Shown here piece after piece: positions 2,461 to 51,513 of a stretch of 64,000 nucleotides of DNA. Positions within the stretch are counted from its first letter, which is position 1. Each line of letters starts with the position of its first letter. The notes beneath the pieces were generated by a model, which searched no databases, was not told where the DNA came from, and saw only the letters and a program-made list of their open reading frames with translations. This DNA comes from a virus (Duplodnaviria > Heunggongvirae > Uroviricota > Caudoviricetes), in IMG/VR virus record IMGVR_UViG_2563366960_000002, one strand, 5' to 3'. Both the position numbers and the translations under genes were made by a program.

Positions 2461-2707
2461 ACTCCGGCAGCTCCGCCGACTTTCGACAATGAAGTTATCG
2501 CTGGCGGCGATAGTTTTCGACTCGATTTTCATGGCGGTATATGTGCTCAATGAGACGTGGCCACTGGAACCGCTATTATATGCCGGGCTTCGGCTGTGCC
2601 TGACATTTTTGAGCATGGCTGCGAGATTGATGCAGCAGAAAGAAACCGCTTCAGATTGTCCACGCCGCGCGGTGCGCAAATATATGGCACGCAGGCGAAG
2701 GCGATAA
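2453..2707 (+). CDS. Small two-TM membrane protein translationally coupled to lyz
   Basis: ATG overlaps the lyz stop (ATGAATAA); two hydrophobic segments and an Arg-rich C-terminus; lysis-accessory role is inferred from position only. Confidence 0.4.
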   Translation: MNKLRQLRRLSTMKLSLAAIVFDSIFMAVYVLNETWPLEPLLYAGLRLCLTFLSMAARLMQQKETASDCPRRAVRKYMARRRRR

Positions 2708-2718
2708 TAGTTAACGAG

Positions 2719-2746
2719 AACCCCGGCAGCTGCCGGGGTTATTTTT
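2719..2746. terminator. Bidirectional intrinsic terminator
   Basis: Perfect palindrome CCCCGGCAG/CTGCCGGGG followed by TTATTTTT; sits between the convergent lyz unit and pro. Confidence 0.6.
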
Positions 2747-2751
2747 GGTGG

Positions 2752-5482
<2,731 letters not shown>

Positions 5483-5515
5483 TTAATTAGAATAATTCGC
5501 ATCGTGTTTTAACGG

Positions 5516-5537
5516 AATTTAACACTAGTCACTTGTT
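5516..5537 (-). promoter_or_regulatory. Candidate late promoter for prt-pro
   Basis: On the minus strand AACAAGTGACT-agtgt-TAAATT, in the prt/darB divergent intergenic region. Confidence 0.4.
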
Positions 5538-5548
5538 AAGGATTACCA

Positions 5549-8500
5549 ATGAACAAGCTATCTATGGGGGTGTTTCGCTGTTCAAGTGTCAGCGAAATAT
5601 TGAAATACATTAGGGCAATAACATCTCACCGAGCGCCGATTAAATACGGCGTGGAAAAGGTGGAAGGCAAAAGCTATGACCGACTGCGCCGGGAGGCGAA
5701 TCAGAAGGCGATAGATTTGCTTAATTCGCTGGTGGACGGCGCGACACTGACAGATGAACAGCGCCAGATCCTGGCTGGGTACACCGGTGAAGGCGGCATT
5801 GGCGGGTCCGTCTCCGAATATTACACACCAAAGCCGATCGCTGAAGGTGTCTGGGAGATCATGAAGCTCTACGGCGCGGACGTAGGTAACACTCTGGAAC
5901 CATCGGCGGGAACCGGCGTTTTTAATGAGACAAAACCGGTTGGTACGGTGATGACCGCGACTGAGATCAGCAGTGTTTCCGGTCGTATAAACCAGCTGTT
6001 GCACCCGGAAGACAGCGTACAGATTTCTCCGTTCGAACAACTGGCTGTAAGCACGCCTAACGATTCATTCGACCATGTTGTGGGTAACGTTCCGTTCGGT
6101 GGTCGTGATAACACACGCAACATCGATAAGCCTTACGCAGAAGAAACGGACATGGGTTCTTACTTCATGCTCCGCATGCTGGACAAGATAAAGCCAGGCG
6201 GATTCATGTGCGTGATTGTGCCGCCGTCCATTGTTTCAGGTTCAAACATGAAGCGGTTACGCCTGCGCCTATCACGGAAAGCTGAATTTCTTGGTGCCCA
6301 CCGCTTGCCTACCGGTACTTTTGACGCTAACGGGACCAGTACGGTCGTAGATGTGGTGCTGATGCGCAAACATCCGGCAGAGATGGCTGAGAAAATCCCC
6401 CTGGTGGATGAAAGCACTCTCGAATCGGCAAATGTGCTTTGGTCAACGTTTATTTCTGGCAAGTGGTTTGAAAAGGATGGCCGCCGGTTTGTTCATGGCA
6501 CCCAGGAAAAGGGCTTCCAGGGGCGTATTGAGGTTCGTGCCGACGGTCAGATTGATAACCAGGCTCTTAAAGCGAAGCTGATTCATCGTTTCGAAAGCCG
6601 TATCGACTGGTCTTTGCTCGATATGGCTGAACCGTCACCGACCGCAGACGTTGTTGGTGAAGGGGAAATGCGCCTGATTAATGGCGTATGGCAAAAATAT
6701 GCTGGTGGTCGCTGGATTGAAGCTGATGCAGGGAAGGAACTTAAGATCGATGCTGCCAGTTATGGCGCGGATAGCTGGGAGGCTCTTCAGCGTAACCTGA
6801 CTACAACAGAAGGCCGTCTCGGCATGACATTTACCCAGATGGCAAATGTCCGCGATAAGTACACCACATCAATCAGCGACGATATGGTGCAGCTGGTGGA
6901 CTGGATTAACAGCCAGCCTGAAAAATACCGTGAACGCTTGTATCGCGGGGCGATGATTGGCCGGATGTTAATTGAATATCAGGACATGAAGGCCGCCGGG
7001 CATAGTGCTGAACAAATCGAACAGCAGCGCCTTTCTCTGGTATCCCGTTTGCAGGCAGAGATTGACCGTTTTGGTAACCCCGGTCGCGGTCCGATAGCGA
7101 AATTATCGGGGAGCGGTGCGCGCGCCTGGTTTGCTTTCCGTGGTGCAATTAAGCTGGATGGCACTATTTCTGACGAGCTGACAGGAAAACTGGTTACGCA
7201 TGATTCCAGCGCCAGTTATGACTCCACCAGCTATCAGGACACCCTGCGTTATCTCTACAGTGATCTCACTCGCGATCCAATCCAGCTCGATGATTTCCGC
7301 CTTGCGTTTACCGGCGAACTGCCAGCCAGTGATGACGAGTTGCTTAATTTATTGGCCAGCACCCCTGGCATTGCGGTTTCACCGTATGGCGGGATTGTTC
7401 CGTTCGCCCGCGCCACCAGCGGCGACATTAACGAGATAGTGGCACCAAAACAGGAATTCCTTGCCACACTCCCCGACGGTCCAGTAAAGAACAACGTCCT
7501 TAATCAGCTGGCAGCGATCGAAGAGAAGCGCATCAAGACGCCAGCAGAGAATATCCGCTTTAAGCTCAATAGCCGTTGGTTCGACCGTTCCGTCATTCTG
7601 GAATTTTTGCAGGAAAACGGCTATCCGGATCTGCGCTATGTGCAGTCAGTGCAGCTGGAAGGCGACGAAATGGTTTCTGACACCTATCACGGTGGTGATG
7701 GTCTGTTCGTCGGGCACCGATACGGTGTCGTCCAGCGCAAGGATAAAGAAACAGGCGAGATCCGCTATGAGTGGGACCGTAAATCAGGTGAAAACGCGAC
7801 CGGGTTCCCGGCACAGCTGGAAAAGTATCTCAATGGTGCGCGTATCGGTGGCAAAGATAGCGCGACGGCGAACGGCTACCGCGAGCAGATGGCACTGCTT
7901 GAGGACCAGTTCAATAAGTGGATCAAGACGCACGATCGCTACGATGAGTTGGTTGCCAAATACAACGATGTGTTCAATAGCAATATCCCGTATGAACACT
8001 CTGGCGATCCGCTTGGGTTGAAGGGATTAAGCGGTAAGCGCCAGCCATTTGATTACCAGAATAGCGAGGTGCGCCGACTGTCCGAAGATGGGCGCGGCAT
8101 CCTGGGCTTCGGCACCGGGCTGGGTAAAACGACGACCGCGCTGGCGCTTGAGGCGTTCAACTATGAGAACGGTCGCTCCACCCGTACTGCTTATGTAGTG
8201 CCTAAAGCAGTGCTGGAAAACTGGTATTACGAAGCAAAAGAGTTCCTGAGTGAAGAGGCATTCAGTAACTACCTGTTCGTCGGTCTTGATGTGCTGATGG
8301 ATGGCGATCAGATTCGCCAGGTGCCGGTGCTCGATGAGAACGGTAAACCTGTTCTTGGTACTGATGGCACTCCAGTTATGCGCGATGCTCTTAAGCTGGC
8401 AGATGAAGCCACTATCACGGCGCGGATGAACGCGATCCCGCACTCAAATTACCGTGCAGTCGTGTTTACCAAAGAACAATACGCCCGCATTCCGCTACGT

Positions 8501-11500
8501 GATGACACCGTAGATGAGCATGCACAGGATATGCTTTATGACTTCGTTGCCGCCGGGCGCGTAGCCAGCGCAATGGATTCCGATTCCCATCGCAAAGAGG
8601 CGGCGCGTCGCCGGGTATTGTCGGAGTATTCAGATACCGGTACCGAAAAAGCAGAGAAGTATCCGTACTTTGAGGATATGGGCTTCGACAGCGTGATCGC
8701 TGACGAAGGCCACAACTACCGCAATAGCTATAAAAATGGTCGCGAAGCGTCACAGCTGGCCTATCTGCCCACCAGCGCGGTAGCGCAATCGGCGCGAGAT
8801 ATGGCAATCAAAAACGCGTACCTGATGAAAAAGAATGGCGGGCGCGGACCGGTTCTCCTGACTGCAACGCCAGTCGTTAACACCCCGATCGATGCATACA
8901 ACATGCTTTCTCATGTTCTGCCGAAGGAATACTGGCAGAAGATGGGGATCTACGGTCCTGATGACTTCGTTAAATTCTTCGGCAAGACCAGGCTGGAAAC
9001 GGTACAGAAAATCAGCGGTGAAGTTGAAGAAAAAATGGCGCTGGTGGGCTTTGAAAACCTTGATGCGCTGCGCGGTATATTCCATCGCTGGGTAACGCTT
9101 AAAACGGCGGAAGACGTTAAGGATACCGTGGAGATCCCGGAGCTGGACGAACACCAGCAGGATGCTCCACTTACTGAAGAACAACTGGCGGCGTATGAAG
9201 AATTGCGTCAGCAGGCGGAAGCGGCGGCCAAAGCCAACAATGGCGTAACGACCTCGGTCAATGAAGACGGCGTGATTGAGCACGAGAAAGCCCGTCCGAT
9301 CTTCTCAATAATCAGGGATATGGACCGCGTATGTACTGACATGGACCTGTACTATCGCCGGATCACCTATCGTTTCCTGCCGGAGTATGCCGATGCGGTG
9401 CAGCAGCTGGCGGACAGTTTGCCTAAACAAGCCACCAGCGAAGACGACGACAGTGATGATTCAATCACGCAGCAATCGCAATACTCCCTGATAGATAAGG
9501 GCGAGTTTATTCAGTTGCAGGTTCCGGAAGCGTTTGAGCAGGAAGTGAATAAGCGCCTGGCCAGGTTTGGCATTGACGAACAGACCGTAACTCACCCCTT
9601 TACGCCAAAATACGCGAAGCTGATCGCCACGCTGAAGGAGTTTTTCCCGGAAGGTAAGCAAATCATCTTCACCGATGAAAAAACGCAGCACCAGAAGCTC
9701 AAGCGCATTATCTGCAATGCTCTTAACCTTGAACCTTCAAAGGTGGGGATCCTGAATGCTCAGACGGTTGCCGAGGCAGGTAAAACCGGTAAGAAACTGA
9801 AAGCGGTTAAACCGCCGAAAGAGCTACCGGATGAACCAACAGATGCACAGATAGCGAAATACAACGAGCAAATGGCTCTGTATGACGCCTATATCGCGCA
9901 GCAAAATGAAATGTCGCTGGGCGGGCTGGAAAAGATTGCTGCCGACTTCCAGGAGGGCCGGACTCCGATCATCATCTGCAACAAAAAGGCAGAGGTGGGT
10001 ATCAACCTGCATCGAGGAACGACTGACATCCATCATCTGACGTTGCCATGGACTCCAGCCAGTATTGCGCAACGAAACGGTCGCGGTGCCCGAGTTGGCT
10101 CCAACCGTGCAAGCGTTCGCGTTCACTACTACTGCGGCAAGGGTTCTTTCGATGAATACCGACTGAAGACGCTGAAGCGTAAAGCAGGCTGGATCTCCGA
10201 TATCCTCCGTTCAGATAAGTCAGAAATGGAGAACGCCGACGCCAACGATATGATCGAAATGCAGATGTATACCGCTAAGGATGATGGCGAACGTCTGGCA
10301 ATGATGCAGGTTCAAATGGATAAGGCGAAAGCCGCGCAACGCGCTCGCCAGAAAGAACAGGCTACTATCGACCTTCAGAACTACATCAAGGCGCAGCACG
10401 CAGCTGGTGAGGATGTGGAAGCTCTTACCGCTGAATTGGAGCGAAGCAAAGCGGAACTTGAAAAGACCACCGCCGACGTCGCCAAATTCAAACAGGCGGC
10501 AATGGCCAAGGCAGCGGATAACGCAGACTGGAAGGCACGCTGGGGGAGTGTCCATAACGCTGACCGTATGTTGTTAGCTCAGTATCGTGCATCGTTGAAA
10601 AGTGCCATTCAGCGCAAGGCTAATATCTCTCAAGCCATCTCCCGCTATGAGAAATTATTGAACCGTACCCAGAAGGCTGCGACGGATATCAAACGCCTGC
10701 GCCCGCTGGTGGAGGATGCAATAAATAAAGGCATTCTGGATGTTGATCCTGATCTGGTTAACCATGCGAATGAGTTCCTTGTTATCGACGATCGCTCATG
10801 GCGTGTAGGCCAATACTACGATTGTGCCGGTGATATCGTTCGCATTAAGTCGCTGGACTTCGACAGCCAACGCGCAGACGTGGAGATCATCTTTACCTTC
10901 AAAGGTACCAAATCGGGTAACTGGGATGTGAAGACGCTGGATAAACAGGTGGATGTAACTCCCGATGAAGATGCTGTTATGCAGAAAATCAGTGGTGGCG
11001 TCTCCATCGCCGGGATTAACGGCATCATTTCCTGTGACGATTTCTACCGTTTCCAGCAGCGCGGCATGATCAAAATCACTGACTCATACGGCGTTCAGAC
11101 TACAGAGTCAGGCTATAGCATTGATTTTGTTGGTACCTATACGGACCCACTGAAGCATGCGGTTTACCCGGATCGCCGTGACGGCGCGCTGAAGTCGTCA
11201 ATTGCAAAATGGGTGCTTGGTATGATGTCGGAAGGGAATAACCGCCAGGTCCGTTTGGCAGAAGTATTCCTGACTGAACTGTTTGGCTCCAATTATGGCG
11301 ATGTAATCGCGTCATACGGAGATACGCTATCCCCTGAAGCAATTCAGGAGAAAATAGCGGATGCGATCGCCAGAATGCCGGAGAAAACAAGCCAGGGGGC
11401 TACTCGTAACGGGGATTCTGAACTTGAGGTCACCAATGCCATTTTCGGTACCCATGAGTTCCGGGCGTCAGATTATGAGATCACCACAGCACAGTTTGGC

Positions 11501-42512: not shown

Positions 42513-45659
<3,147 letters not shown>

Positions 45660-45660
45660 G

Positions 45661-45690
45661 AAAAGCCCGGCGATCGGGCTTTTCTTTTAT
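45661..45690. terminator. Intrinsic terminator between convergent operons
   Basis: AAGCCCG-gcgat-CGGGCTT followed by TTCTTTT. Confidence 0.55.
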
Positions 45691-45704
45691 AATGGGTTCA
45701 ATTT

Positions 45705-46679
45705 TTATCCGTTACCGCACGACGGTTTCTGCGTGATAAACGTTTCAAGCATCTTTTCCGCGATTGCCGACCAGGTGTGACACTGGACCTTTTCAGCATT
45801 TTTCAGGCGATCAACGCGAGCAATCACCTCATCCCAATCAATCCGCGACTTGATAACCATATGGTTCACCAAAGCCAGGCGATCTGGCGGAAGGCAATCG
45901 GACGGCGTTAATATCAACGCCCCACACATTGCCGCCTCAAGAACAGTTAATCCAAGGCTTTCGGGATGCGTAACGATAAAAACGTCACTCTTACGCAATT
46001 CAGCTGCAAATTCGGTTGCTGGTACCGGCGTCCGTCTGTATGGAGTTACCGAAATATTCCCCGGATCAATGGTAACCAATCCGTCATCGGTCAACGTTCT
46101 GGCCTCATACGGAACAGTCAGACGCTGAAGGTTCATAAGGATACTTAAGGAGTGATCAAACCCACTAACATCAAATGCAGCGTGGTCTACAAAAATACGC
46201 AGAACATCGTCTGTTTTGGTTTCCAGATGGAACAGCTCCTGATTCGCTGCCCATCCAACATGTTTGTTAAAGCGATTATGACGCTCTAACCTGCCGGGAT
46301 TATCCAGGTACCGCCAGGTATCATCGCGGACAGTAAAAGTAATATCAACTGGTGCCGAATCCAGCATAGAACCGTCGTATACCTGAGCTACCCATCCAGT
46401 GAATCGACGACGCAGTTGCACGCCTATTTCCCTGGGCACCGTAGTAAAATACCGCAATCCTGGCGCTAAAATGGCTTTCGCAGAACACGAGAGCGCAGCG
46501 GTCAACACAGCTTCAACATAATCCTCCGGGCTTTCGACGCCGGGAGAATATGGACGATGGTATTGCAATGTTACCCCAGCCTCACTAAAGGCGCAGGCCA
46601 GGTTGTAAGCCCACATTTCCGTATATGTTTTCACATCACTGATAGCTTCAAATTTTCGCCCAATGATCAGGATGTTCAT
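45705..46679 (-). CDS. GT4-family (GT-B fold) glycosyltransferase
   Basis: 324 aa; N-terminal MNILIIGRKF; C-terminal EX7E motif ESLGLTVLEAAMCGALIL; last gene of the ban transcription unit. Confidence 0.65.
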   Translation of the reverse strand: MNILIIGRKFEAISDVKTYTEMWAYNLACAFSEAGVTLQYHRPYSPGVESPEDYVEAVLTAALSCSAKAILAPGLRYFTTVPREIGVQLRRRFTGWVAQVYDGSMLDSAPVDITFTVRDDTWRYLDNPGRLERHNRFNKHVGWAANQELFHLETKTDDVLRIFVDHAAFDVSGFDHSLSILMNLQRLTVPYEARTLTDDGLVTIDPGNISVTPYRRTPVPATEFAAELRKSDVFIVTHPESLGLTVLEAAMCGALILTPSDCLPPDRLALVNHMVIKSRIDWDEVIARVDRLKNAEKVQCHTWSAIAEKMLETFITQKPSCGNG

Positions 46680-46981
46680 TGCGTCTCCTTTTCCCTGACT
46701 AAAAGCTCATCCAGCTTGCTTTTATGTTTGAGCACATAGCCACATATTTTTCCTTTGGAGCTAATTTGCGGAATGGAATAATATTCCGAAAATACTAATT
46801 CAGCCTTTTCTAAGACAAGTGAAACACCATAGCGCGCAACATGTCTGTCGATCATTTTTGCATCTCTGAGATTACCTTTAATTGATAGCCAGTCGTTGAG
46901 GTACATATGGTTGCGATTGGCTTTTTTCAGCATGTCGCTCAACCAATTTTTATTACGCTTAGTTAGTTTCCGTTGCATCAA
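46676..46981 (-). CDS. Small AT-rich gene downstream of ban (dbn-like)
   Basis: 101 aa; start overlaps the ban stop; about 38% GC. Confidence 0.45.
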   Translation of the reverse strand: MMQRKLTKRNKNWLSDMLKKANRNHMYLNDWLSIKGNLRDAKMIDRHVARYGVSLVLEKAELVFSEYYSIPQISSKGKICGYVLKHKSKLDELLVREKETQ

Positions 46982-48342
46982 TAATCCTCTTGCCAGTCAG
47001 CACCAGCATAGTTATCAAACCGTGAGTATTGGCCGTTAAAAGCCAATCTCACCGTGCCAATTGGGCCATTTCGTTGCTTACCGATAATCACCTCGGCAAT
47101 GCCCTTCATTTCGCTATCCGGGTGATAAACTTCGTCGCGATACAGAAACATGATCAGGTCTGCGTCCTGCTCAATTGCTCCTGATTCACGTAAATCTGAA
47201 TTTACCGGACGTTTGTCCGCACGCTGTTCAAGCGATCGATTAAGTTGTGACAATGCCACCACCGGTACTTGTAATTCCTTCGCCAACGCCTTCAGTGAGC
47301 GAGAAATCTCGGCAATTTCCAGCGTTCGGTTATCTTGCAGCTCGGGGACGCGCATAAGTTGCAGGTAGTCGATCATAATCATGCTCAAACCACCATTTTC
47401 TTTATAAACACGACGAGCGCGGGAACGTAGCTCTGTCGGCGTCAGGGCGCTTGAGTCATCAATAAAAATATTCTGCTTGTCCAACAGAATCCCCATTGCG
47501 CCAGAAACCCGCGCCCAATCCTCGTCGTTAAGTTGCCCTGTTCGAATACGAGTCTGATCAACGCGTGCAAGAGAAGCCAGTGAGCGCATCATCAGCTGGT
47601 GGCTCGGCATCTCAAGGCTAAAAACCAATACGGGCTTATCGTTACGGACTGCGGCATTTTCGACGAGATTCATCGCAAACGTAGTCTTCCCCATCGATGG
47701 GCGGGCGGCGACAATAATGAGATCGGACGCCTGAAGTCCTGCCGTCTTCTTATTGAGATCGGTAAATCCGGTATCAAGCCCCGTTACACCATCATGCGGT
47801 CGCTGAAACAACTCTTCTATGCGAGATACCGTTGCATCGAGAATGCTGGCGATATCTTTTGGACCACTACCGCTCTTTTGTCGTTTTTCAGCTATTTCAA
47901 AAACGCGGCGCTCGGCCATATCCAGCAATTCATTGCTGCCCCTGCCATCCTGCGCATATCCAGCTTCGGCTATTTCATTTGCGACGGAAATCATTTCACG
48001 AACAACCGCGCGTTCACGAACGATATCCGCATAAGCACAAATATTTGCCGCGCTGGGCGTGTTCTTTGACATCTCCGCAAGGTACGCAAAACCACCGGCG
48101 CGTTCTAATTTACCGTTCTGTTCAAGTGCTTCAGCAAGTGTTATCAAATCAATCGGTTTGCCATGACTTAATAACCTCTCCATCTCACTGAAAATTTCAC
48201 GATGAGCACTGGTATAAAAATCATCAGCAACTATACGATCTGCAACTTCATCCCAGCGGCAGTTATCAAGCATTAAGCCACCAAGTACAGCTTGTTCTGC
48301 ACTAAGGGAATTTGGCATGGATTCAAGAGGGGATGCAGACAT
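46978..48342 (-). CDS. ban: Ban, DnaB-family replicative helicase
   Basis: 454 aa from ATG 48342 (GGAG Shine-Dalgarno); near-colinear with E. coli DnaB (AEQAVLGGLMLDN..., Walker A GKTTFAMN, ...GKQRNGPIGTVRL). Confidence 0.95.
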   Translation of the reverse strand: MSASPLESMPNSLSAEQAVLGGLMLDNCRWDEVADRIVADDFYTSAHREIFSEMERLLSHGKPIDLITLAEALEQNGKLERAGGFAYLAEMSKNTPSAANICAYADIVRERAVVREMISVANEIAEAGYAQDGRGSNELLDMAERRVFEIAEKRQKSGSGPKDIASILDATVSRIEELFQRPHDGVTGLDTGFTDLNKKTAGLQASDLIIVAARPSMGKTTFAMNLVENAAVRNDKPVLVFSLEMPSHQLMMRSLASLARVDQTRIRTGQLNDEDWARVSGAMGILLDKQNIFIDDSSALTPTELRSRARRVYKENGGLSMIMIDYLQLMRVPELQDNRTLEIAEISRSLKALAKELQVPVVALSQLNRSLEQRADKRPVNSDLRESGAIEQDADLIMFLYRDEVYHPDSEMKGIAEVIIGKQRNGPIGTVRLAFNGQYSRFDNYAGADWQEDY

Positions 48343-48627
48343 TAGCACTCCACCCAGGCGTGCTGAATGTCAGATATAATCGGCATACTCAAATCACTCC
48401 TAACGATATGAGTCATCACCAGAAAATCAGGATTAATGCGCCGGACTCTTCCCGGCTGTCACACCGAATCGCCAGGATGGTGAGTCCCTGTATCCGCTAT
48501 CCCTCCAACGGTGACTTGCACATTCCGGCTACCTGGTTTGTTGCCTGAGCTAGGGGAAAAGGTAACCCCTTTAACGTCACCAGACCGCTAACGACGCATG
48601 TGCCAGACGCCGTGTTACAACCAAATA

Positions 48628-48703
48628 TGGTGGCCCCTACCGGACTTGAACCGGTGACCGTGCGATTATGAGTCGCCAGCTCTAACCACTGAGCTAAAGG
48701 GCC
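48628..48703 (-). tRNA. tRNA-Ile2 (anticodon CAU, ileX-like)
   Basis: 76 nt, GGCCCTTTAGCTCAGTGGTTAGAGC...ACTCATAATCG...GGTTCAAGTCC...GGGGCCACCA; closely resembles E. coli ileX; cloverleaf checked by hand. Confidence 0.85.
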
Positions 48704-48730
48704 GGATTACTGCCAATTTTGCTTACGCTT

Positions 48731-49558
48731 TTATTTCACCGGAACAAACGGAACAGCGGCATTACTGGTCATATACTGCGGTAATGTACCGTTCCATTTG
48801 TTGATCGCTTCCAACTCCATAACACCGGGGTTCTGGCGCAGAGCTTCACCACGTAAACGAATGGCATCAGCTTCGGCCTGGGCTTTTGTGCGAATAGCAT
48901 CAGCCTGTCCGGCAGCTTCCGCGCGCAGCATGTTGGCCTCTGCTTCACGTTGTTTGACCTCTTGCTCGCGTTGCAGGGTTTTTTGGTTTGCCGTAACTTT
49001 GGCGTTAATACTGTCAATAACTGTTGGCGGATATTCTGGCTTACCTACATAAGAGAGGCTCATCACCTGAATGCCGATTGGCGTCATTTCTTCCTGAATG
49101 TCTTTAAGGGCTGCATCAAGCAATTCAGATTTGCCACCGTCGATAAATTTGTCGGTGGTCATTTTGCTGGCTAACCGGTTCAGAGCATCTGCAACCTTCT
49201 GGCGTAGATCGGTATCAGTAATATCATCTACACCTTTGCGATAGGTCTGAAATACCGTTGTGACTTTTGCTGGATCAACCTTGTAGGCTACGCCGATGTG
49301 GTAACCAATGGTTGTTCCGTCGCTCATCTGGAAGCTGAACGGCTCATCGTATGTCTTCATTTGCTTAAAGGTCGGGAAGATATAAACTTCAGTATTCAAG
49401 CCTGTCCAGTAGCGACCAACACCAACTACTTCACCGATACCTTTATCATCCCCCAGCTTATTTACTTTGATCCCTACGTTACCTGGCTCTACCCGATCGC
49501 ATCCGGTCAGACATAAAGAACCCAAAATAATCGCTGCACTAATCAACGTTTTTTTCAT
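48731..49558 (-). CDS. plp: SPFH/band-7 domain lipoprotein (Plp-like)
   Basis: 275 aa; lipobox LTGC after signal peptide; HflK/prohibitin-like core and Ala/Glu-rich coiled-coil. Confidence 0.75.
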   Translation of the reverse strand: MKKTLISAAIILGSLCLTGCDRVEPGNVGIKVNKLGDDKGIGEVVGVGRYWTGLNTEVYIFPTFKQMKTYDEPFSFQMSDGTTIGYHIGVAYKVDPAKVTTVFQTYRKGVDDITDTDLRQKVADALNRLASKMTTDKFIDGGKSELLDAALKDIQEEMTPIGIQVMSLSYVGKPEYPPTVIDSINAKVTANQKTLQREQEVKQREAEANMLRAEAAGQADAIRTKAQAEADAIRLRGEALRQNPGVMELEAINKWNGTLPQYMTSNAAVPFVPVK

Positions 49559-49775
49559 TAATTAATTTCCTGGTTTTTTCACGAAAAAAGACTACTGCGA
49601 AAGCCGGGTAAATGAGCGCGAGAAGGACTCCCAACAATACAAGTATTGTGCTGTTAGATGAGATCATATTTGGCAAAAGCCAAACATACAGAACCAGTGA
49701 CACAATCAAACAGAGGACGGCATAAATATATAACCGCACCCATAGCGTTCGACATTTGTTCGGATTGTTCTGCAT
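49539..49775 (-). CDS. upl: Small membrane protein upstream of plp (Upl-like)
   Basis: 78 aa, two TM segments; overlaps the plp start. Confidence 0.55.
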   Translation of the reverse strand: MQNNPNKCRTLWVRLYIYAVLCLIVSLVLYVWLLPNMISSNSTILVLLGVLLALIYPAFAVVFFREKTRKLINEKNVD

Positions 49776-50038
49776 CCTCTCACTCCATTATTTAACGAAT
49801 AAAAAAGCTGCGGTGCCGGGTACCTCCCGGTGTCCTTTGGCTGGTTATCCACCGTGGACGGGGAAACAAGGAGAAATGAATGGACTGATATAACCATTTC
49901 CCCGCGTGCGCTTAGCCGCATTCACCGCAATGGTAAGAGCACTTGGCTGGCTGGGCGGCGATGACGCCTGTATGCATTTGGTGATCCGGTTCTGCTTCCG
50001 GCATTCGCTTAATTAGCCAAATACTCTTAACGTTGCGC

Positions 50039-50125
50039 TGGCGGAGAGTAATGGAATCGAACCATCATCGCTTGCGCTATGGGACGGTTTTCAAGACCGC
50101 TTGAGCACCATGCTCCCTACTCTCC
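50039..50125 (-). tRNA. tRNA-like element with UGA anticodon loop (Ser-like, class II; possibly degenerate)
   Basis: 87 nt; acceptor GGAGAGT/ACTCTCC-G-CCA, anticodon arm GCGGT-CTTGAAA-ACCGT, T-loop TTCGATT; D-arm atypical. Confidence 0.35.
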
Positions 50126-50260
50126 CGTTATTGTGGCGACCGGTGCTGATCTCCGGCTTGCGGTTATTTCAGACTCTCACGGGCGTTTAATTGCCCCGCC
50201 GAACAGCTCTTTTCCGCAATAGCTGCAATGTCTTTCGCGCATCAGCCTGCGCATTCACCA

Positions 50261-50349
50261 CAACGTTGAGAACACTGGTTGTCACGCGCAACGCAACATT
50301 TATTCGTAGATTGGGATATGACCCCGTTACGCCAGTGTTCTCAACGTTG
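50261..50349. repeat. Perfect 18-bp inverted repeat with 53-nt spacer inside the tRNA cluster
   Basis: CAACGTTGAGAACACTGG ... CCAGTGTTCTCAACGTTG. Confidence 0.6.
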
Positions 50350-50578
50350 TAGTGCCGGTTACGGTTCCGGCCAGGCCTCTTCCTCAACGGGGTGTTCTCC
50401 ATACGGACTACCGTTTATTGGTCGTTCCTGCGGTTTATGTTGTGAAGCCAGATGCTTATCTTCTGGTTGCTTCAAAGAGCTGCACTTCATCACAACGGTA
50501 AGAGCATTTATGGCTCGCATCGCGGGAAAAAGCCCACGGTAGAGAGTCGAACTCTACAAATGCTCTTACCTGTTGTGT

Positions 50579-50654
50579 TGGTGCCGGTTAACGGGATCGA
50601 ACCGCTGACCATTCGCTTACAAAGCGACTGCTCTACCAACTGAGCTAAACCGGC
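50579..50654 (-). tRNA. tRNA-Thr (anticodon UGU)
   Basis: 76 nt, GCCGGTTTAGCTCAGTTGGTAGAGC...CTTTGTAAG...GGTTCGATCC...CCGGCACCA. Confidence 0.85.
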
Positions 50655-50658
50655 AATT

Positions 50659-50745
50659 TGGTGGGGAGTGATGGAGTCGAACCACCCGAGTCGCAATGAC
50701 AGTAGATTTACAGTCTACCCCGCTACCCCTACGGACTAACTCCCC
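50659..50745 (-). tRNA. tRNA-Tyr-like (anticodon GUA, long variable arm)
   Basis: 87 nt; acceptor GGGGAGT/ACTCCCC-A-CCA, anticodon arm GTAGA-CTGTAAA-TCTAC, T-loop TTCGACT; D-arm atypical. Confidence 0.6.
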
Positions 50746-50750
50746 TAAAT

Positions 50751-50827
50751 TGGCGATGGTGGGTGGATTCGAACCACCGACCGACAGCTTAGAAGGCTGC
50801 TGCTCTATCCTACTGAGCTACACCATC
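50751..50827 (-). tRNA. tRNA-Arg (anticodon UCU, argU-like)
   Basis: 77 nt, GATGGTGTAGCTCAGTAGGATAGAGC...CCTTCTAAG...GGTTCGAATCC...CACCATCGCCA. Confidence 0.8.
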
Positions 50828-51486
50828 ACTTGCCGGGTACGTCTCCGGCGAGGGCTTCCACCTCCGTATGCTTTTCGGCGCACCGCGCCCTGGCTGCAAT
50901 TCGGTAACAGGGGATGCACAACCCTGGCTTCCAACGTGATTAGCGCCTTCAGCATGACGGGATATACCCGTAGTAGGACGTTATCTTCAAATTGCTAAAA
51001 GCAATTGCTGTTACGCAGAATGAAAAAGGACGTAACAGGTAAGGACGCTGACCAAAAAGATGGCCCCTTCTCGCTCATCTGGTTAATCGAACCAGCGCCC
51101 TTACCTGTTGTGCCTCCCCGTTCCCTAATACACAGACGGGGACACTCTGCGGTCGATTTTTTGACGGGGGACGACTCATACCCCGTGGCGTCTGGCTTCT
51201 TAGGCCGCTACCATCATCAGATCATCGTTTGCATTTACTTTAATGGTCAGTTTCTAAACCGCCGCAAAGTCGCTAACCATGACGAAAACCCTGAAAAAAA
51301 CGCCCACCCGAAGATGGGCAAACTGGAAGCTCGTAACGCACTTCGGTGTTGCCACTTAGGCGTATGGTCAACCTGGCAACTCGGCGTCATGATGGGGAAG
51401 GAGTCACTACCCCGCCATACTTGCCGCCGCGCCTGTCGCGGCTAACAGCTAAATCGCTCTATAAATCACGATTCATTGATGCGATA

Positions 51487-51513
51487 TTACACTAATAAAT
51501 TTATTAGAGCAAT
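51487..51513 (-). promoter_or_regulatory. C1 operator (perfect consensus, palindromic extension) at the head of the tRNA/plp/ban unit
   Basis: Reverse complement ATTGCTCTAATAAATTT (17/17) overlapping an opposite-orientation ATTACACTAATAAATTT; overlaps the dmt stop. Confidence 0.7.

What the first reader, a model, noticed from the sequence alone, without database searches (positions are those of the whole stretch)
45705..46679. GT4 glycosyltransferase at the end of the early ban operon
A complete GT-B glycosyltransferase (N-terminal MNILIIGRKF, C-terminal EX7E motif) is co-oriented with ban and the small downstream AT-rich gene, so likely expressed early. An early phage glycosyltransferase could modify host surface polysaccharide or phage DNA/protein; neither role is established here.
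Basis: partly seen in the sequence, partly recalled or inferred. Interest (0 to 1): 0.45.

Follow-up and report, generated by a model that had tools for sequence, protein, structure and literature searches.

The report
P1 dbn glycosyltransferase, part of split glycan module
The ORF is the already-named but never characterised phage P1 gene dbn, a real two-domain sugar-transferring enzyme, and comparison with other phages shows that it belongs together with three other P1 sugar-transferase genes (pmgO, pmgP, pmgQ) lying 6-8 kb away, which makes its unknown function testable.

Summary

The new result is its context. In at least five other phage types (P2-like, lambdoid, an RdgC-type phage, a T4-spanin phage, myophage EP_H11), Dbn homologs sit directly beside homologs of P1 PmgO/PmgP (WaaZ-like, Kdo-transferase-type) and PmgQ (GT8-like). 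In two metagenome contigs Dbn and PmgQ are fused in one polypeptide. Phage D6 lacks all four genes. A cellular kps-type capsule locus and a large phage pair Dbn-like and WaaZ-like genes with KdsA/KdsB-type genes.

Dbn is therefore most likely one enzyme of a four-enzyme phage glycan pathway that involves Kdo-type sugars. The acceptor is unresolved: LPS inner-core glycolipid (my choice, about 0.35) or virion proteins (about 0.3). The gene is known; the linkage appears undescribed.

The parts
45705..46679 (-). dbn: 324-aa soluble GT-B glycosyltransferase (P1 Dbn / P7 Glt allele; phrog_2518). EX7E = E240..E248. Other invariant residues include D102, W143, A144, D165, H166, D175, T237, H238.
45658..45686 (.). 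GC-rich hairpin flanked by an A-run and a T-run. It is a terminator-like element, probably bidirectional, between the convergent genes dbn and baseplate gene 5 (45027..45659, +).
   Evidence: sequence; MFE -18.9 kcal/mol, z -4.5, 0 of 200 shuffles as stable
46685..46690 (-). AAGGAG Shine-Dalgarno sequence 7 nt upstream of the dbn ATG. The stop codon of the upstream ORF overlaps the dbn ATG (ATGA), which indicates translational coupling.
46676..46978 (-). 100-aa basic (pI 9.9) ORF of unknown function (phrog_12809). It lies on a 288-bp AT-rich insertion (46680-46967) that replaces 13 bp of P1/P7/RCS47. It is translationally coupled to ban upstream and to dbn downstream.
46978..48348 (-). ban, DnaB-type replicative helicase, upstream cistron of the operon.
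51486..51513 (.). Bivalent C1 repressor operator (Op72/Oban type; one perfect and one 2-mismatch copy of ATTGCTCTAATAAATTT, overlapping). It heads the ban operon, which runs on the minus strand through five tRNA genes, the SPFH gene, ban and the small ORF to dbn.
39109..39771 (-). pmgO: 220-aa basic WaaZ-like/MptE-like protein (phrog_4603, labelled 'alpha-2,3-sialyltransferase'). It is a conserved partner of Dbn homologs in other phages.
38585..39211 (-). pmgP: 208-aa basic protein, a second WaaZ-like/MptE-like paralog. It is a conserved partner of Dbn homologs.
37213..37914 (-). pmgQ: 233-aa GT-A-type protein, GT8-like, with DxD motif 'YLDLDTVI' (phrog_1962 'glycosyltransferase'). It is the partner most often adjacent to Dbn homologs and is fused to a Dbn-like domain in L251/L252.

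Best explanation
The ORF is this P1-type phage-plasmid's copy of dbn. It encodes a soluble, catalytically competent GT-B glycosyltransferase. Its fold is GT4-like, so it is probably a retaining enzyme that uses a host nucleotide sugar.

Expression. It is transcribed as the last, translationally coupled cistron of the C1-repressed ban operon. It is therefore made during lytic development and not in the repressed prophage. This step is inferred from P1 annotation and from the conserved operator.

Pathway. Dbn does not act alone. It is the GT-B member of a four-enzyme glycan-assembly set. In P1 the other members are PmgO and PmgP (WaaZ-like, Kdo/ulosonic-acid-transferase-type) and PmgQ (GT8-like GT-A). 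They are encoded 6-8 kb away in the pmgL-Q operon, which also has C1 operators plus a late promoter. The linkage is shown by gene neighbourhood, by gene fusion and by joint presence/absence.

Chemistry (inferred). The set builds a short oligosaccharide that contains Kdo or a related ulosonic acid. Dbn adds a hexose to, or next to, that ulosonic acid.

Acceptor (my commitment; weakest step). The acceptor is a Kdo-bearing glycolipid of the host, that is the LPS inner core at the cytoplasmic face of the inner membrane. Newly made LPS would then be remodelled during lytic growth.

Separate confidences. Genuine GT-B glycosyltransferase: about 0.9. Works in one pathway with PmgQ and PmgO/P: about 0.75. 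Pathway involves Kdo-type sugars: about 0.5. Acceptor is LPS core glycolipid: about 0.35. The single confidence value given for this explanation (0.4) refers to the whole chain, including the acceptor.
For: Identity and fold:
- 96-98% identity to P1 Dbn / RCS47 Dbn / P7 Glt.
- EX7E and 14 further residues are invariant in 54 homologs spanning 28-97% identity.
- Purifying selection: dN/dS 0.118, against 0.097 for baseplate gene 5. Intact in 78 of 84 P1-like loci.

Operon:
- Overlapping stop/start codons and an SD sequence.
- Oban operator at 51486-51513 (P1 annotation).
- Terminator hairpin after dbn.

Linkage to pmgO/P/Q:
- Home-made HMMs find a PmgQ-like gene within 10 kb of the Dbn homolog in 15 of 16 non-P1 contexts. 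This includes 8 of 8 loci that were not used to build the model.
- WaaZ-like, Dbn-like and PmgQ-like genes are directly clustered in a P2-like prophage (L012), a lambdoid phage (L240), myophage EP_H11 (L244), an RdgC-type phage (L241) and a T4-spanin phage (L011).
- A single 797-aa polypeptide carries Dbn (aa 1-321, 439 bits) and PmgQ (aa 330-541, 235 bits) in two independent contigs.
- All deposited phage groups with Dbn also have PmgQ, which occurs in only 32 of 50,697 records.
- The P1 relative D6 lacks all four genes but keeps the flanking backbone.

Kdo link:
- The PmgO/P-family HMM hits E. coli WaaZ at 39 bits over nearly the full length, and HHalign gives 94%. None of 10 other LPS-core enzymes is hit.
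- Six homologs give MptE-like Pfam hits, the best at 33.7 bits against a cut-off of 34.6.
- A kps-type capsule locus pairs WaaZ-like and Dbn-like genes (40% id) with KdsA- and KdsB-type genes.
- A large phage pairs MptE-like and Dbn-like genes with a CTP_transf_3 (KdsB/NeuA-family) cytidylyltransferase.

Host-glycolipid acceptor:
- The cassette moves between unrelated phage morphotypes, and the Dbn N-domain (normally the acceptor side) is highly conserved across them. This argues for a host-provided, conserved acceptor.
- The cellular homolog works in lipid-anchored polysaccharide synthesis.
- PmgO and PmgP are basic (pI 9.3-9.5), as expected for enzymes that work on anionic membrane glycolipids.
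- P1 itself adsorbs to the LPS core (established knowledge).
Against: - No experiment anywhere shows a glycan product. dbn, pmgO, pmgP and pmgQ are all dispensable for plaque formation.
- Dbn is acidic (pI 5.6; N-domain 6.1) and has no amphipathic or hydrophobic segment. This differs from typical membrane-associated GT-B enzymes.
- In every context the module looks lytically or late expressed. P1 has C1-repressed operons and a late promoter. L240 places it downstream of the Q antiterminator, L012 after the portal gene, L243 inside a head-tail block. It also occurs in strictly lytic and jumbo phages. That timing and distribution fit virion decoration better than surface conversion, because bulk outer-membrane LPS cannot be replaced within one latent period.
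- The PmgO/P match to WaaZ is family-level only. The NCBIfam WaaZ equivalog model scores 11.8 bits against a cut-off of 200.
- The large-phage subgroup with PmgQ lacks WaaZ-like genes. Another subgroup has WaaZ-like genes but no PmgQ. The two most distant homologs have neither.
- JK004 and phi456 have PmgO/PmgQ but no detectable Dbn.
- The canonical GT4 basic phosphate-binding positions appear to be replaced by invariant D165-H166 and D175. This is a positional inference only, so even the donor class is uncertain.
Confidence: 0.4

Rival explanations
1. Virion glycosylation. The same four-enzyme set, including Dbn, decorates P1 structural proteins (capsid, sheath or fibres) with a short glycan late in infection. 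Mycobacteriophages and giant viruses do this. The decoration would be dispensable in the laboratory and useful in nature, for example for shielding or stability.
For: - The contexts point to lytic or late expression. The P1 pmgL-Q operon has a late promoter. The module lies after the portal gene in L012, between the Q antiterminator and the terminase in L240, and inside the head-tail block in L243.
- WaaZ-like genes lie in the head-gene block of D3-like Pseudomonas phages.
- The module is present in strictly lytic and jumbo phages.
- Tailoring enzymes accompany it: methyl-, sulfo- and pyruvyl-transferases and an Asp2-like hydrolase.
- The best viral structural neighbour is a Tupanvirus glycosyltransferase (TM 0.80/0.82), and giant viruses glycosylate their virions (background knowledge).
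- MptE-like proteins include Maf flagellin glycosyltransferases (background knowledge). SRRP-glycan enzymes Gtf3/GtfC appear among the fold hits.
- All four genes are non-essential.
- Dbn is soluble and acidic.
Against: - I could not find any glycoprotein reported for P1 or for any phage of Gram-negative bacteria.
- The cassette is shared by phages with unrelated structural proteins, which argues against a phage-specific protein acceptor.
- Kdo-type O-glycosylation of proteins has no precedent that I know of.
- dbn sits in an early operon (ban), not a late one.
- The cellular homolog pair works in a capsule (glycolipid) locus.
Confidence: 0.3
2. Stand-alone early enzyme, essentially the first reader's picture. 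Dbn acts independently of the pmg genes. It uses a host UDP-sugar to modify some host molecule early in infection, such as a surface polysaccharide, a metabolite or a protein. This could serve exclusion or host takeover.
For: - In P1-type elements dbn is physically separate from pmgO/P/Q and lies in a different operon.
- JK004 and phi456 keep PmgO/PmgQ without Dbn, so the enzymes are separable.
- The top structural neighbours include small-molecule GT4 enzymes: BshA, BGluT and sucrose-phosphate synthase.
Against: - Adjacency in at least 5 other phage types, fusion with PmgQ in one polypeptide, and joint absence from D6 are hard to explain if the functions are unrelated.
- PADLOC finds no defence-system match.
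Confidence: 0.12
3. Nucleic-acid modification. Dbn glycosylates phage DNA, as T4 alpha/beta-glucosyltransferases or the HY126 arabinosyltransferase do. Alternatively it glycosylates a tRNA base such as queuosine, given the tRNA genes in the same operon.
For: - The gene follows a replicative helicase.
- The operon carries 5 tRNA genes, including tRNA-Tyr(GTA).
- In large phages the cluster lies near RecA-like and helicase genes.
Against: - Those matches score lower than ordinary GT4 enzymes.
- P1 DNA is not known to carry hydroxymethyl or hydroxy pyrimidines or sugars (established knowledge; P1 DNA is routinely cut and cloned).
- The partners are LPS/capsule-type enzymes (WaaZ-like, GT8-like, pyruvyl-, sulfo- and methyl-transferases), not base-hydroxylating enzymes.
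- A homolog sits in a capsule locus.
Confidence: 0.05
4. Inactive relic. Dbn is a decaying or non-catalytic GT-B domain carried passively downstream of ban.
For: - Non-essential.
- The deposited P7 copy has an in-frame stop at W23.
- Pfam scores below threshold.
- The canonical basic phosphate-binding residues seem to be replaced.
Against: - dN/dS is 0.118 across 51 alleles, and the gene is intact in 78 of 84 loci.
- 16 positions, including both EX7E glutamates, are invariant down to 28% identity.
- The model is confident and compact.
Confidence: 0.03

Closest known systems
Bacteriophage P1 Dbn (YP_006544.1, 'downstream of ban') / P7 Glt / RCS47 'putative glycosyltransferase, Dbn'; PHROG phrog_2518
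   Same: 96-98% amino-acid identity over the full length. Same position between ban and baseplate gene 5, same orientation, same terminator region.
   Different: A 288-bp insertion with an extra 100-aa ORF separates ban from dbn here; 14 of 84 IMG/VR P1-like loci and 52 PLSDB plasmids share it. The start codon used here is the internal ATG of the P1 annotation: P1 is annotated 8 codons longer, but family alignment supports the MNIL start.
CAZy GT4-type retaining GT-B glycosyltransferases (e.g. sucrose-phosphate synthase 6kih, BshA 6n1x, PimA 2gej, PimB' 3oka, WaaG 8b5s)
   Different: - Identity is only 10-15%, and TM-score is at most 0.68.
- Pfam Glycos_transf_1 scores below threshold, and no N-domain GT4 model matches.
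- There is no Gly-rich N-terminal loop.
- The positions after the first C-domain strand, which hold G-R...K in GT4, hold invariant D165-H166...D175 (positional inference).
- The protein is shorter (324 aa, against about 360-400).
E. coli LPS-core enzymes WaaZ (Kdo III transferase), WaaJ/WaaO (GT8) and WaaG/WaaB (GT4)
   Same: The P1 set (2 WaaZ-like, 1 GT8-like, 1 GT4-like) mirrors the enzyme classes that build the LPS core. The PmgO/P family matches WaaZ specifically (39 bits; HHalign 94%). PmgQ weakly prefers WaaJ.
   Different: None is an ortholog. The WaaZ equivalog model is far below its cut-off. PmgO/P are about 70 residues shorter than WaaZ. Dbn shares only the EX7E stretch with WaaG. 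No LPS change by P1 is documented.
Phage serotype-conversion modules (GtrA/GtrB/GtrC of P22, SfV etc.)
   Same: Both are phage-encoded glycosyltransferases that would alter LPS, if the LPS hypothesis is right.
   Different: Gtr systems use a membrane GT2, a flippase and a periplasmic GT-C, and they act on O-antigen from a lysogen-expressed operon. Dbn is a soluble cytoplasmic GT-B in a repressor-controlled lytic operon, with WaaZ-like and GT8-like partners.
Virion-glycosylation gene sets of mycobacteriophages and giant viruses (Freeman et al. 2023, as cited in PMC12619734; Tupanvirus GT A0A6N1NPH0)
   Same: Several GTs plus methyl/pyruvyl-type tailoring enzymes, dispensable for growth, lytically expressed. 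The best viral structural neighbour is a giant-virus GT (TM 0.80/0.82).
   Different: There is no sequence-level relationship. No glycosylated P1 protein is known. The partners here are Kdo-transferase-like.

Membership tests
P1 Dbn family (phrog_2518) | Full-length, high-scoring match to the family profile and to P1 Dbn | tested here: met
   phrog_2518 E 3.9e-231, residues 1-324. 96% identity to cluster P0001, which has 2431 members. tblastn 96.0% to NC_005856 dbn.
P1 Dbn family (phrog_2518) | Synteny: immediately downstream of ban, convergent with baseplate gene 5 | tested here: met
   One difference: a 288-bp insertion carrying an extra ORF lies between ban and dbn.
GT-B fold glycosyltransferases | Two Rossmann-like alpha/beta domains with an inter-domain cleft | tested here: met
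GT4 (Pfam Glycos_transf_1 / Glyco_transf_4) | C-terminal domain match at or above the Pfam gathering threshold | tested here: not met
   PF00534 scores 24.5 bits against a cut-off of 26.4, on residues 221-307 only. The family profile against PDB sequences aligns only the EX7E stretch.
GT4 (Pfam Glycos_transf_1 / Glyco_transf_4) | EX7E motif in the C-terminal domain | tested here: met
   E240-x7-E248, invariant in 54 of 54 sequences. It aligns with the motif of 8xsg and MshA.
GT4 (Pfam Glycos_transf_1 / Glyco_transf_4) | N-terminal GT4 domain signature (Glyco_transf_4 / Glyco_trans_4_4 models, Gly-rich loop) | tested here: not met
   No N-domain Pfam model hits at E <= 0.1. The N-terminus reads MNILIIGRKFEAIS, with no GG loop.
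GT4 (Pfam Glycos_transf_1 / Glyco_transf_4) | Basic Arg/Lys pair that binds the donor diphosphate after the first C-domain strand | tested here: inconclusive
   By secondary-structure position (strand 160-164, helix 177-184) these sites hold invariant D165-H166 and D175. No 3-D superposition with a ligand complex could be made.
GT4 (Pfam Glycos_transf_1 / Glyco_transf_4) | Retaining stereochemistry with an NDP-sugar donor | not testable with these tools
   Needs an enzyme assay and product NMR.
Gtr-type serotype-conversion systems | Membrane-bound GT2 bactoprenol glucosyltransferase with a GtrA flippase and a GtrC-type GT-C partner | tested here: not met
   Dbn is a GT-B with no hydrophobic segment. 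Its neighbours are ban, a 100-aa basic ORF and gene 5.
Phage DNA glycosyltransferases (T4 AGT/BGT, HY126 type) | Closest structural relationship to DNA-modifying GTs | tested here: not met
Phage DNA glycosylation (T4 AGT/BGT, HY126 type) | Companion genes that make hydroxymethyl- or hydroxy-pyrimidine DNA | not tested
   The window was not screened systematically for such genes. P1 DNA is not known to contain such bases (established knowledge). The partner genes found are polysaccharide-type.
WaaZ (Kdo III transferase) family, for partners PmgO/PmgP | Match to the WaaZ equivalog model above its cut-off | tested here: not met
   TIGR04437 scores 11.8 bits against a cut-off of 200 for PmgP and gives no hit for PmgO. 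A family-level relationship is nevertheless supported: the PmgO/P HMM scores 39 bits against E. coli WaaZ, and HHalign gives 94%.
Anti-phage defence systems (PADLOC) | Match to any PADLOC model | tested here: not met
   No hit for Dbn, the small ORF or the SPFH protein at E <= 0.1.

The most novel reading that the evidence does not exclude
P1 and many unrelated phages (P2-like, lambdoid, HK97-type, T4-type, jumbo) share a mobile glycan-synthesis cassette. It consists of a Dbn-type GT-B, a PmgQ-type GT-A and usually one or two WaaZ-like ulosonic-acid transferases, and in P1 it is split between two operons. During lytic growth it would build a Kdo-containing glycan. That would be either the first phage-encoded remodelling of the LPS inner core or the first Kdo-type glycosylation of virions in phages of Gram-negative bacteria. 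It would also assign a function to four of P1's long-unexplained accessory genes ('pmg' genes and dbn).
Probability: 0.4. Interest if true: 0.65.

Novelty: new member of a known kind. Interest (0 to 1): 0.4.

Why it matters
P1 is one of the classic model phages, yet dbn and several 'pmg' (putative morphogenetic) genes have had no function since the genome was annotated. The comparative evidence here ties dbn, pmgO, pmgP and pmgQ into one glycan pathway. The same pathway travels as a cassette among very different phages and resembles LPS-core and capsule chemistry.

This turns four 'hypothetical, non-essential' genes into one concrete hypothesis. It can be tested cheaply with a quadruple deletion, LPS and virion mass spectrometry, and adsorption assays.

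If the target is LPS, this would be a new kind of phage-driven surface remodelling that acts on the conserved inner core. If the target is the virion, it would extend virion glycosylation to phages of Gram-negative bacteria, which matters for phage therapy and immune recognition.

If neither is found, the gene remains an ordinary, already-annotated accessory glycosyltransferase.

Tried and rejected
Searches that gave nothing:
- NCBIfam gave no meaningful hit for Dbn. PADLOC gave no hit. A direct PDB sequence search gave only noise.
- A profile-to-PDB sequence search aligned only the EX7E stretch, so donor-site residues could not be mapped by sequence.
- The scan of one genome per species (genome contigs) found only a P1-like contig, a 209-bp fragment and a weak Prochlorococcus-SAG hit. 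It therefore gave no cellular distribution, and the method is pattern-limited.
- The first two viral-contig scans were saturated by P1-like loci.
- The AFDB50 fold library was unavailable.
- Literature searches on dbn/pmgO/P/Q, on WaaZ plus phage, on P1 plus LPS plus glycosyltransferase, and on virion glycosylation found no functional study. The P1 genome paper is not in the held library. PMC8402811 turned out to concern LOS in a cystovirus envelope.

Hypotheses tested and dropped:
- The 552-aa Stenotrophomonas phage protein as a Dbn-PmgQ fusion. Its extension is alpha/beta-hydrolase-like instead.
- A P1 homolog of the third domain found in the large-phage fusions. It is absent from the window.
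- ppp (phosphatase) as part of the set. D6 keeps ppp without the others.
- A Gtr-type conversion system, a defence-system component, and DNA glucosylation (see the membership tests).
Full report
**1. What is at the coordinates**

Window 45705..46679 (minus strand) is an intact 324-aa ORF that starts MNILIIGRKF. The window is a P1-family phage-plasmid. Megablast of 45000-49000 finds RCS47 (98.6%), P1 (97.2%), P7 and SJ46.

In those records the ORF is annotated as follows:
- P1: dbn ('downstream of ban; function unknown, possible glycosyltransferase').
- P7: glt.
- RCS47: 'putative glycosyltransferase, Dbn'. RefSeq calls it 'glycosyltransferase family 4 protein'.

It is therefore an already-named backbone gene of P1-type elements, not a novelty of this element. 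In the genome-wide P1 CRISPRi screen it scored non-essential (PMC10695390).

**2. Local anatomy**

- The stop codon of ban (46978..48348) overlaps the ATG of a 100-aa ORF (46676..46978).
- The stop of that ORF overlaps the dbn ATG (ATGA), and an AAGGAG lies 7 nt upstream.
- After the dbn stop comes a GC hairpin (45658-45686) flanked by an A-run and a T-run. Its energy is -18.9 kcal/mol, z -4.5 against shuffles. It sits between dbn and the convergent baseplate gene 5.
- The C1-operator consensus has 15 matches in the window, against 0.26 expected. These include the overlapping bivalent pair at 51486-51513, which corresponds to Op72/Oban, the operator that controls the ban operon in P1.
- Between the operator and ban lie five tRNA genes and an SPFH/Band-7 gene, all on the minus strand.

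'Last cistron of the repressor-controlled early ban operon' is therefore a fair description. Actual timing is inferred from P1 knowledge and was not measured.

The 100-aa ORF lies on a 288-bp AT-rich insertion (46680-46967) that replaces 13 bp of P1/P7/RCS47. The same insertion occurs in 52 PLSDB plasmids and in 14 of 84 P1-like loci.

**3. Is it really a glycosyltransferase?**

By sequence the evidence is thin:
- Pfam Glycos_transf_1 scores below threshold (24.5 bits against 26.4) on residues 221-307 only, and no N-domain model hits.
- NCBIfam, PADLOC and the PDB sequence search give nothing.
- PHROGs places it in phrog_2518, 'unknown function'.

By structure the case is clear:
- An AlphaFold2 model built on 54 homologs has pLDDT 94.8 and pTM 0.90.
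- The EX7E motif is E240...E248. Both glutamates, and 14 other positions, are invariant across homologs down to 28% identity.

The gene is under purifying selection. dN/dS is 0.118 over 51 alleles, against 0.097 for gene 5 and 0.054 for ban. It is intact in 78 of 84 P1-like loci. The deposited P7 copy has a stop at W23.

One oddity rests on positional inference only. The sites just after the first C-domain strand hold a Gly-Arg...Lys diphosphate clamp in GT4 enzymes. Here they hold invariant D165-H166 and D175. The donor type and any metal requirement are therefore open.

**4. The family and its company**

The large protein search found 73 clusters of full-length relatives (305-350 aa, 28-97% identity), nearly all from phage-like contigs. 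Their neighbourhoods are the main result.

(a) Large phages.
- Contigs of 96-281 kb with terminase, RecA-like and helicase genes were examined. In them the homolog lies in a co-oriented cluster with a nucleotidyltransferase-cupin gene, a pyruvyl transferase, GT8-like and GT47-like genes and methyltransferases.

(b) Smaller phages.
- The homolog sits directly with two paralogous genes of about 200 aa and one of about 225 aa. This is seen in a P2-like prophage (L012), a lambdoid phage (L240), an RdgC-type phage (L241), a phage with a T4-type spanin (L011) and the deposited E. coli myophage EP_H11 (L244).

(c) The partner genes have homologs in this very window.
- 39109..39771 is pmgO.
- 38585..39211 is pmgP.
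- 37213..37914 is pmgQ.
- All three belong to the pmgL-M-N-O-P-ppp-Q operon, which in P1 carries C1 operators and a late promoter.

(d) Counts with home-built HMMs.
- A PmgQ-like gene lies within 10 kb of the Dbn homolog in 15 of 16 non-P1 contexts. This includes 8 of 8 loci that were not used to build the model.
- A further metagenome sample gave 10 non-P1 loci with adequate flanks. Of these, 8 had a PmgQ-like gene or a PmgO/P-like gene or both.

(e) Gene fusion.
- Two independent metagenome contigs encode one 797-aa polypeptide. It has a complete Dbn domain (aa 1-321, 439 bits), a PmgQ domain (aa 330-541, 235 bits) and a third domain. In relatives that third domain is the next gene.

(f) Phyletic pattern.
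- Among 50,697 deposited phages, Dbn occurs in 22 records. These are the P1 group, EP_H11/IME392 and the Stenotrophomonas jumbo phages.
- All of these also have PmgQ, which itself occurs in only 32 records.
- The complete genome of D6, a P1 relative, has none of the four genes even at E <= 1. It keeps pmgM, pmgR, pmgS, genes 5-6-24-7-25-26, and even ppp.

Neighbourhood, fusion and phyletic pattern together show that Dbn and PmgQ, and in enterobacterial phages also PmgO/PmgP, work in one pathway. No paper I could search mentions this.

**5. What chemistry?**

PmgO, PmgP and four of their homologs give sub-threshold MptE-like Pfam hits. The best is 33.7 bits against a cut-off of 34.6.
- An HMM of this family hits E. 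coli K-12 WaaZ, the Kdo-III transferase, at 39 bits over nearly its full length.
- HHalign gives 94% probability for the same pair.
- None of ten other LPS-core enzymes scores.
- The WaaZ equivalog model itself is far from met, so the relationship is at family level only.

PmgQ weakly resembles GT8 enzymes around its DxD motif. The evidence is a Gat1 (PDB 6mw5) match at E 0.04 and WaaJ at 16 bits.

Two independent contexts add ulosonic-acid metabolism:
- A kps-type capsule locus of an enterobacterium has a low-GC serotype-specific block that holds WaaZ-like and Dbn-like genes (40% id) next to KdsA- and KdsB-type genes.
- A 122-kb phage contig pairs MptE-like and Dbn-like genes with a CTP_transf_3 (KdsB/NeuA-family) cytidylyltransferase and sugar-nucleotide enzymes.

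From this I infer that the pathway assembles a short glycan that contains Kdo or a related sugar, and that Dbn supplies a hexosyl transfer. In E. coli K-12 hosts, CMP-Kdo is the only such donor (background knowledge).

**6. On what acceptor?**

This question is not resolved.

For a host Kdo-glycolipid (LPS inner core):
- The cassette hops between phages whose structural proteins are unrelated.
- The Dbn N-domain, normally the acceptor side, is very conserved.
- The cellular homologs work on a lipid-anchored polysaccharide.
- PmgO and PmgP are basic (pI 9.3-9.5).
- P1 uses the LPS core as its receptor (background knowledge).

For virion proteins:
- Every context looks lytically or late expressed.
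- Strictly lytic and jumbo phages carry the module.
- Tailoring enzymes abound.
- The closest viral structure is a Tupanvirus glycosyltransferase, with TM 0.80/0.82 against at most 0.68 for any solved GT4.
- Dbn is acidic and soluble.

I commit to the LPS-core reading at about 0.35 and keep virion glycosylation as a close rival at about 0.3. DNA or tRNA modification is unlikely: DNA glycosyltransferases rank lower, the partners are polysaccharide-type, and P1 DNA is not hypermodified (background knowledge).

**7. Verdict**

The gene itself is known and ordinary: P1 dbn, annotated as a possible glycosyltransferase since the P1 genome was published.

What appears undescribed is that it forms, with pmgO, pmgP and pmgQ, a dispersed copy of a cassette that is contiguous, or even fused, in other phages, and that this cassette points to Kdo-type glycan chemistry. 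This is a moderate but concrete and testable advance. It is not a new kind of system.

Noticed in passing
window 46680-46967 (ORF 46676-46978, minus strand): A 288-bp AT-rich (about 39% GC) insertion replaces 13 bp of P1/P7/RCS47 exactly between ban and dbn. It carries a basic 100-aa ORF (pI 9.9; phrog_12809, unknown function) that is translationally coupled on both sides. It is present in 52 PLSDB P1-like plasmids and in 14 of 84 IMG/VR P1-like loci. Its only distant relatives (34-38%) are in unrelated phages (Av-05, JK004, TH18).
   Followed up: partly
window 37213-39771 (pmgQ, ppp, pmgP, pmgO): P1's 'putative morphogenetic' genes pmgO and pmgP are WaaZ-like (Kdo-transferase-type) paralogs, and pmgQ is a GT8-like GT-A enzyme. 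Together with dbn they reconstitute a cassette that is contiguous in other phages. ppp lies between them but is not part of the set, because D6 keeps ppp alone.
   Followed up: yes
L251 2691-5084 and L252 999-3392 (metagenome contigs SESG01021944.1, SESF01009141.1): A natural 797-aa triple fusion: Dbn-like domain + PmgQ-like domain + a domain of about 250 aa of unknown function. In related large phages these are three consecutive genes. In L009/L248 and L260 only the last two are fused.
   Followed up: partly
window 48731-49558 (minus strand): As in RCS47, the P1 tciA-tciB-tciC genes upstream of ban are replaced by a 275-aa lipoprotein-like SPFH/Band-7 protein (Pfam E 1e-30). RCS47 annotates it as 'putative serine protease'. 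A similar stretch of DNA occurs in phiP27.
   Followed up: partly
window 48628-50827 (minus strand): The ban operon here carries five tRNA genes: Arg-tct, Tyr-gta, Thr-tgt, Ser-tga and Met/Ile-cat. P1 has three annotated (Asn, Thr, Ile).
   Followed up: no
L002 (P7, AF503408.1) locus 2707-3681: The deposited P7 copy of dbn (glt) has an in-frame stop at codon W23. That explains why P7 Glt is annotated shorter. It is either a laboratory-lineage pseudogene or a sequencing error.
   Followed up: partly
L001 (P1, NC_005856) locus 4682-4705: P1 dbn is annotated from an ATG that overlaps the ban stop, 8 codons upstream of MNILIIG. All 53 other family members align from the MNIL/MKxL methionine, and the insertion variant uses that ATG with a strong SD. 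The P1 start is therefore probably mis-annotated.
   Followed up: partly
L014 (Logan ERR11525566 contig), 3000-8600: A kps-type capsule locus of an unidentified enterobacterium has a 33%-GC serotype-specific block. The block contains a WaaZ-like gene and a Dbn-like gene (40% id to the window protein) next to KdsA- and KdsB-type genes. It is the only clearly cellular context found for the family.
   Followed up: partly
Pseudomonas phage D3 (NC_002484) 5855-6388 and relatives PAJU2, PMG1: A lone PmgO/WaaZ-like gene (32-41% id) sits inside the head-gene block of D3-like temperate siphophages. Similar genes occur in Caulobacter giant phages, in Klebsiella/Serratia jumbo phages and in Tetraselmis viridis virus. 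Their role there is unknown.
   Followed up: no
L245 (Stenotrophomonas phage RAS14) 6947-8605; L242 9312-10004: In jumbo phages RAS14 and CM1 the Dbn-like domain is fused to an alpha/beta-hydrolase-like C-terminal domain. In L242 a separate alpha/beta-hydrolase with an Asp2-like signature lies immediately upstream of the Dbn homolog. This suggests O-acyl tailoring of the same glycan.
   Followed up: partly
window 51301-51323 (minus strand): A strong terminator-like hairpin with a T7 run lies only about 180 nt downstream of the Oban operator/promoter region, ahead of the tRNA genes. In P1 this is the dicF-like region. It could be an attenuator of the ban operon.
   Followed up: no
whole window: The C1 operator consensus ATTGCTCTAATAAATTT has 15 matches with at most 3 mismatches, against 0.26 expected by chance. 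They include sites at 37146-37211 (beside pmgQ/pmgR) and at 40819-40835 (the gene 26 / pmgL divergent promoter region).
   Followed up: partly
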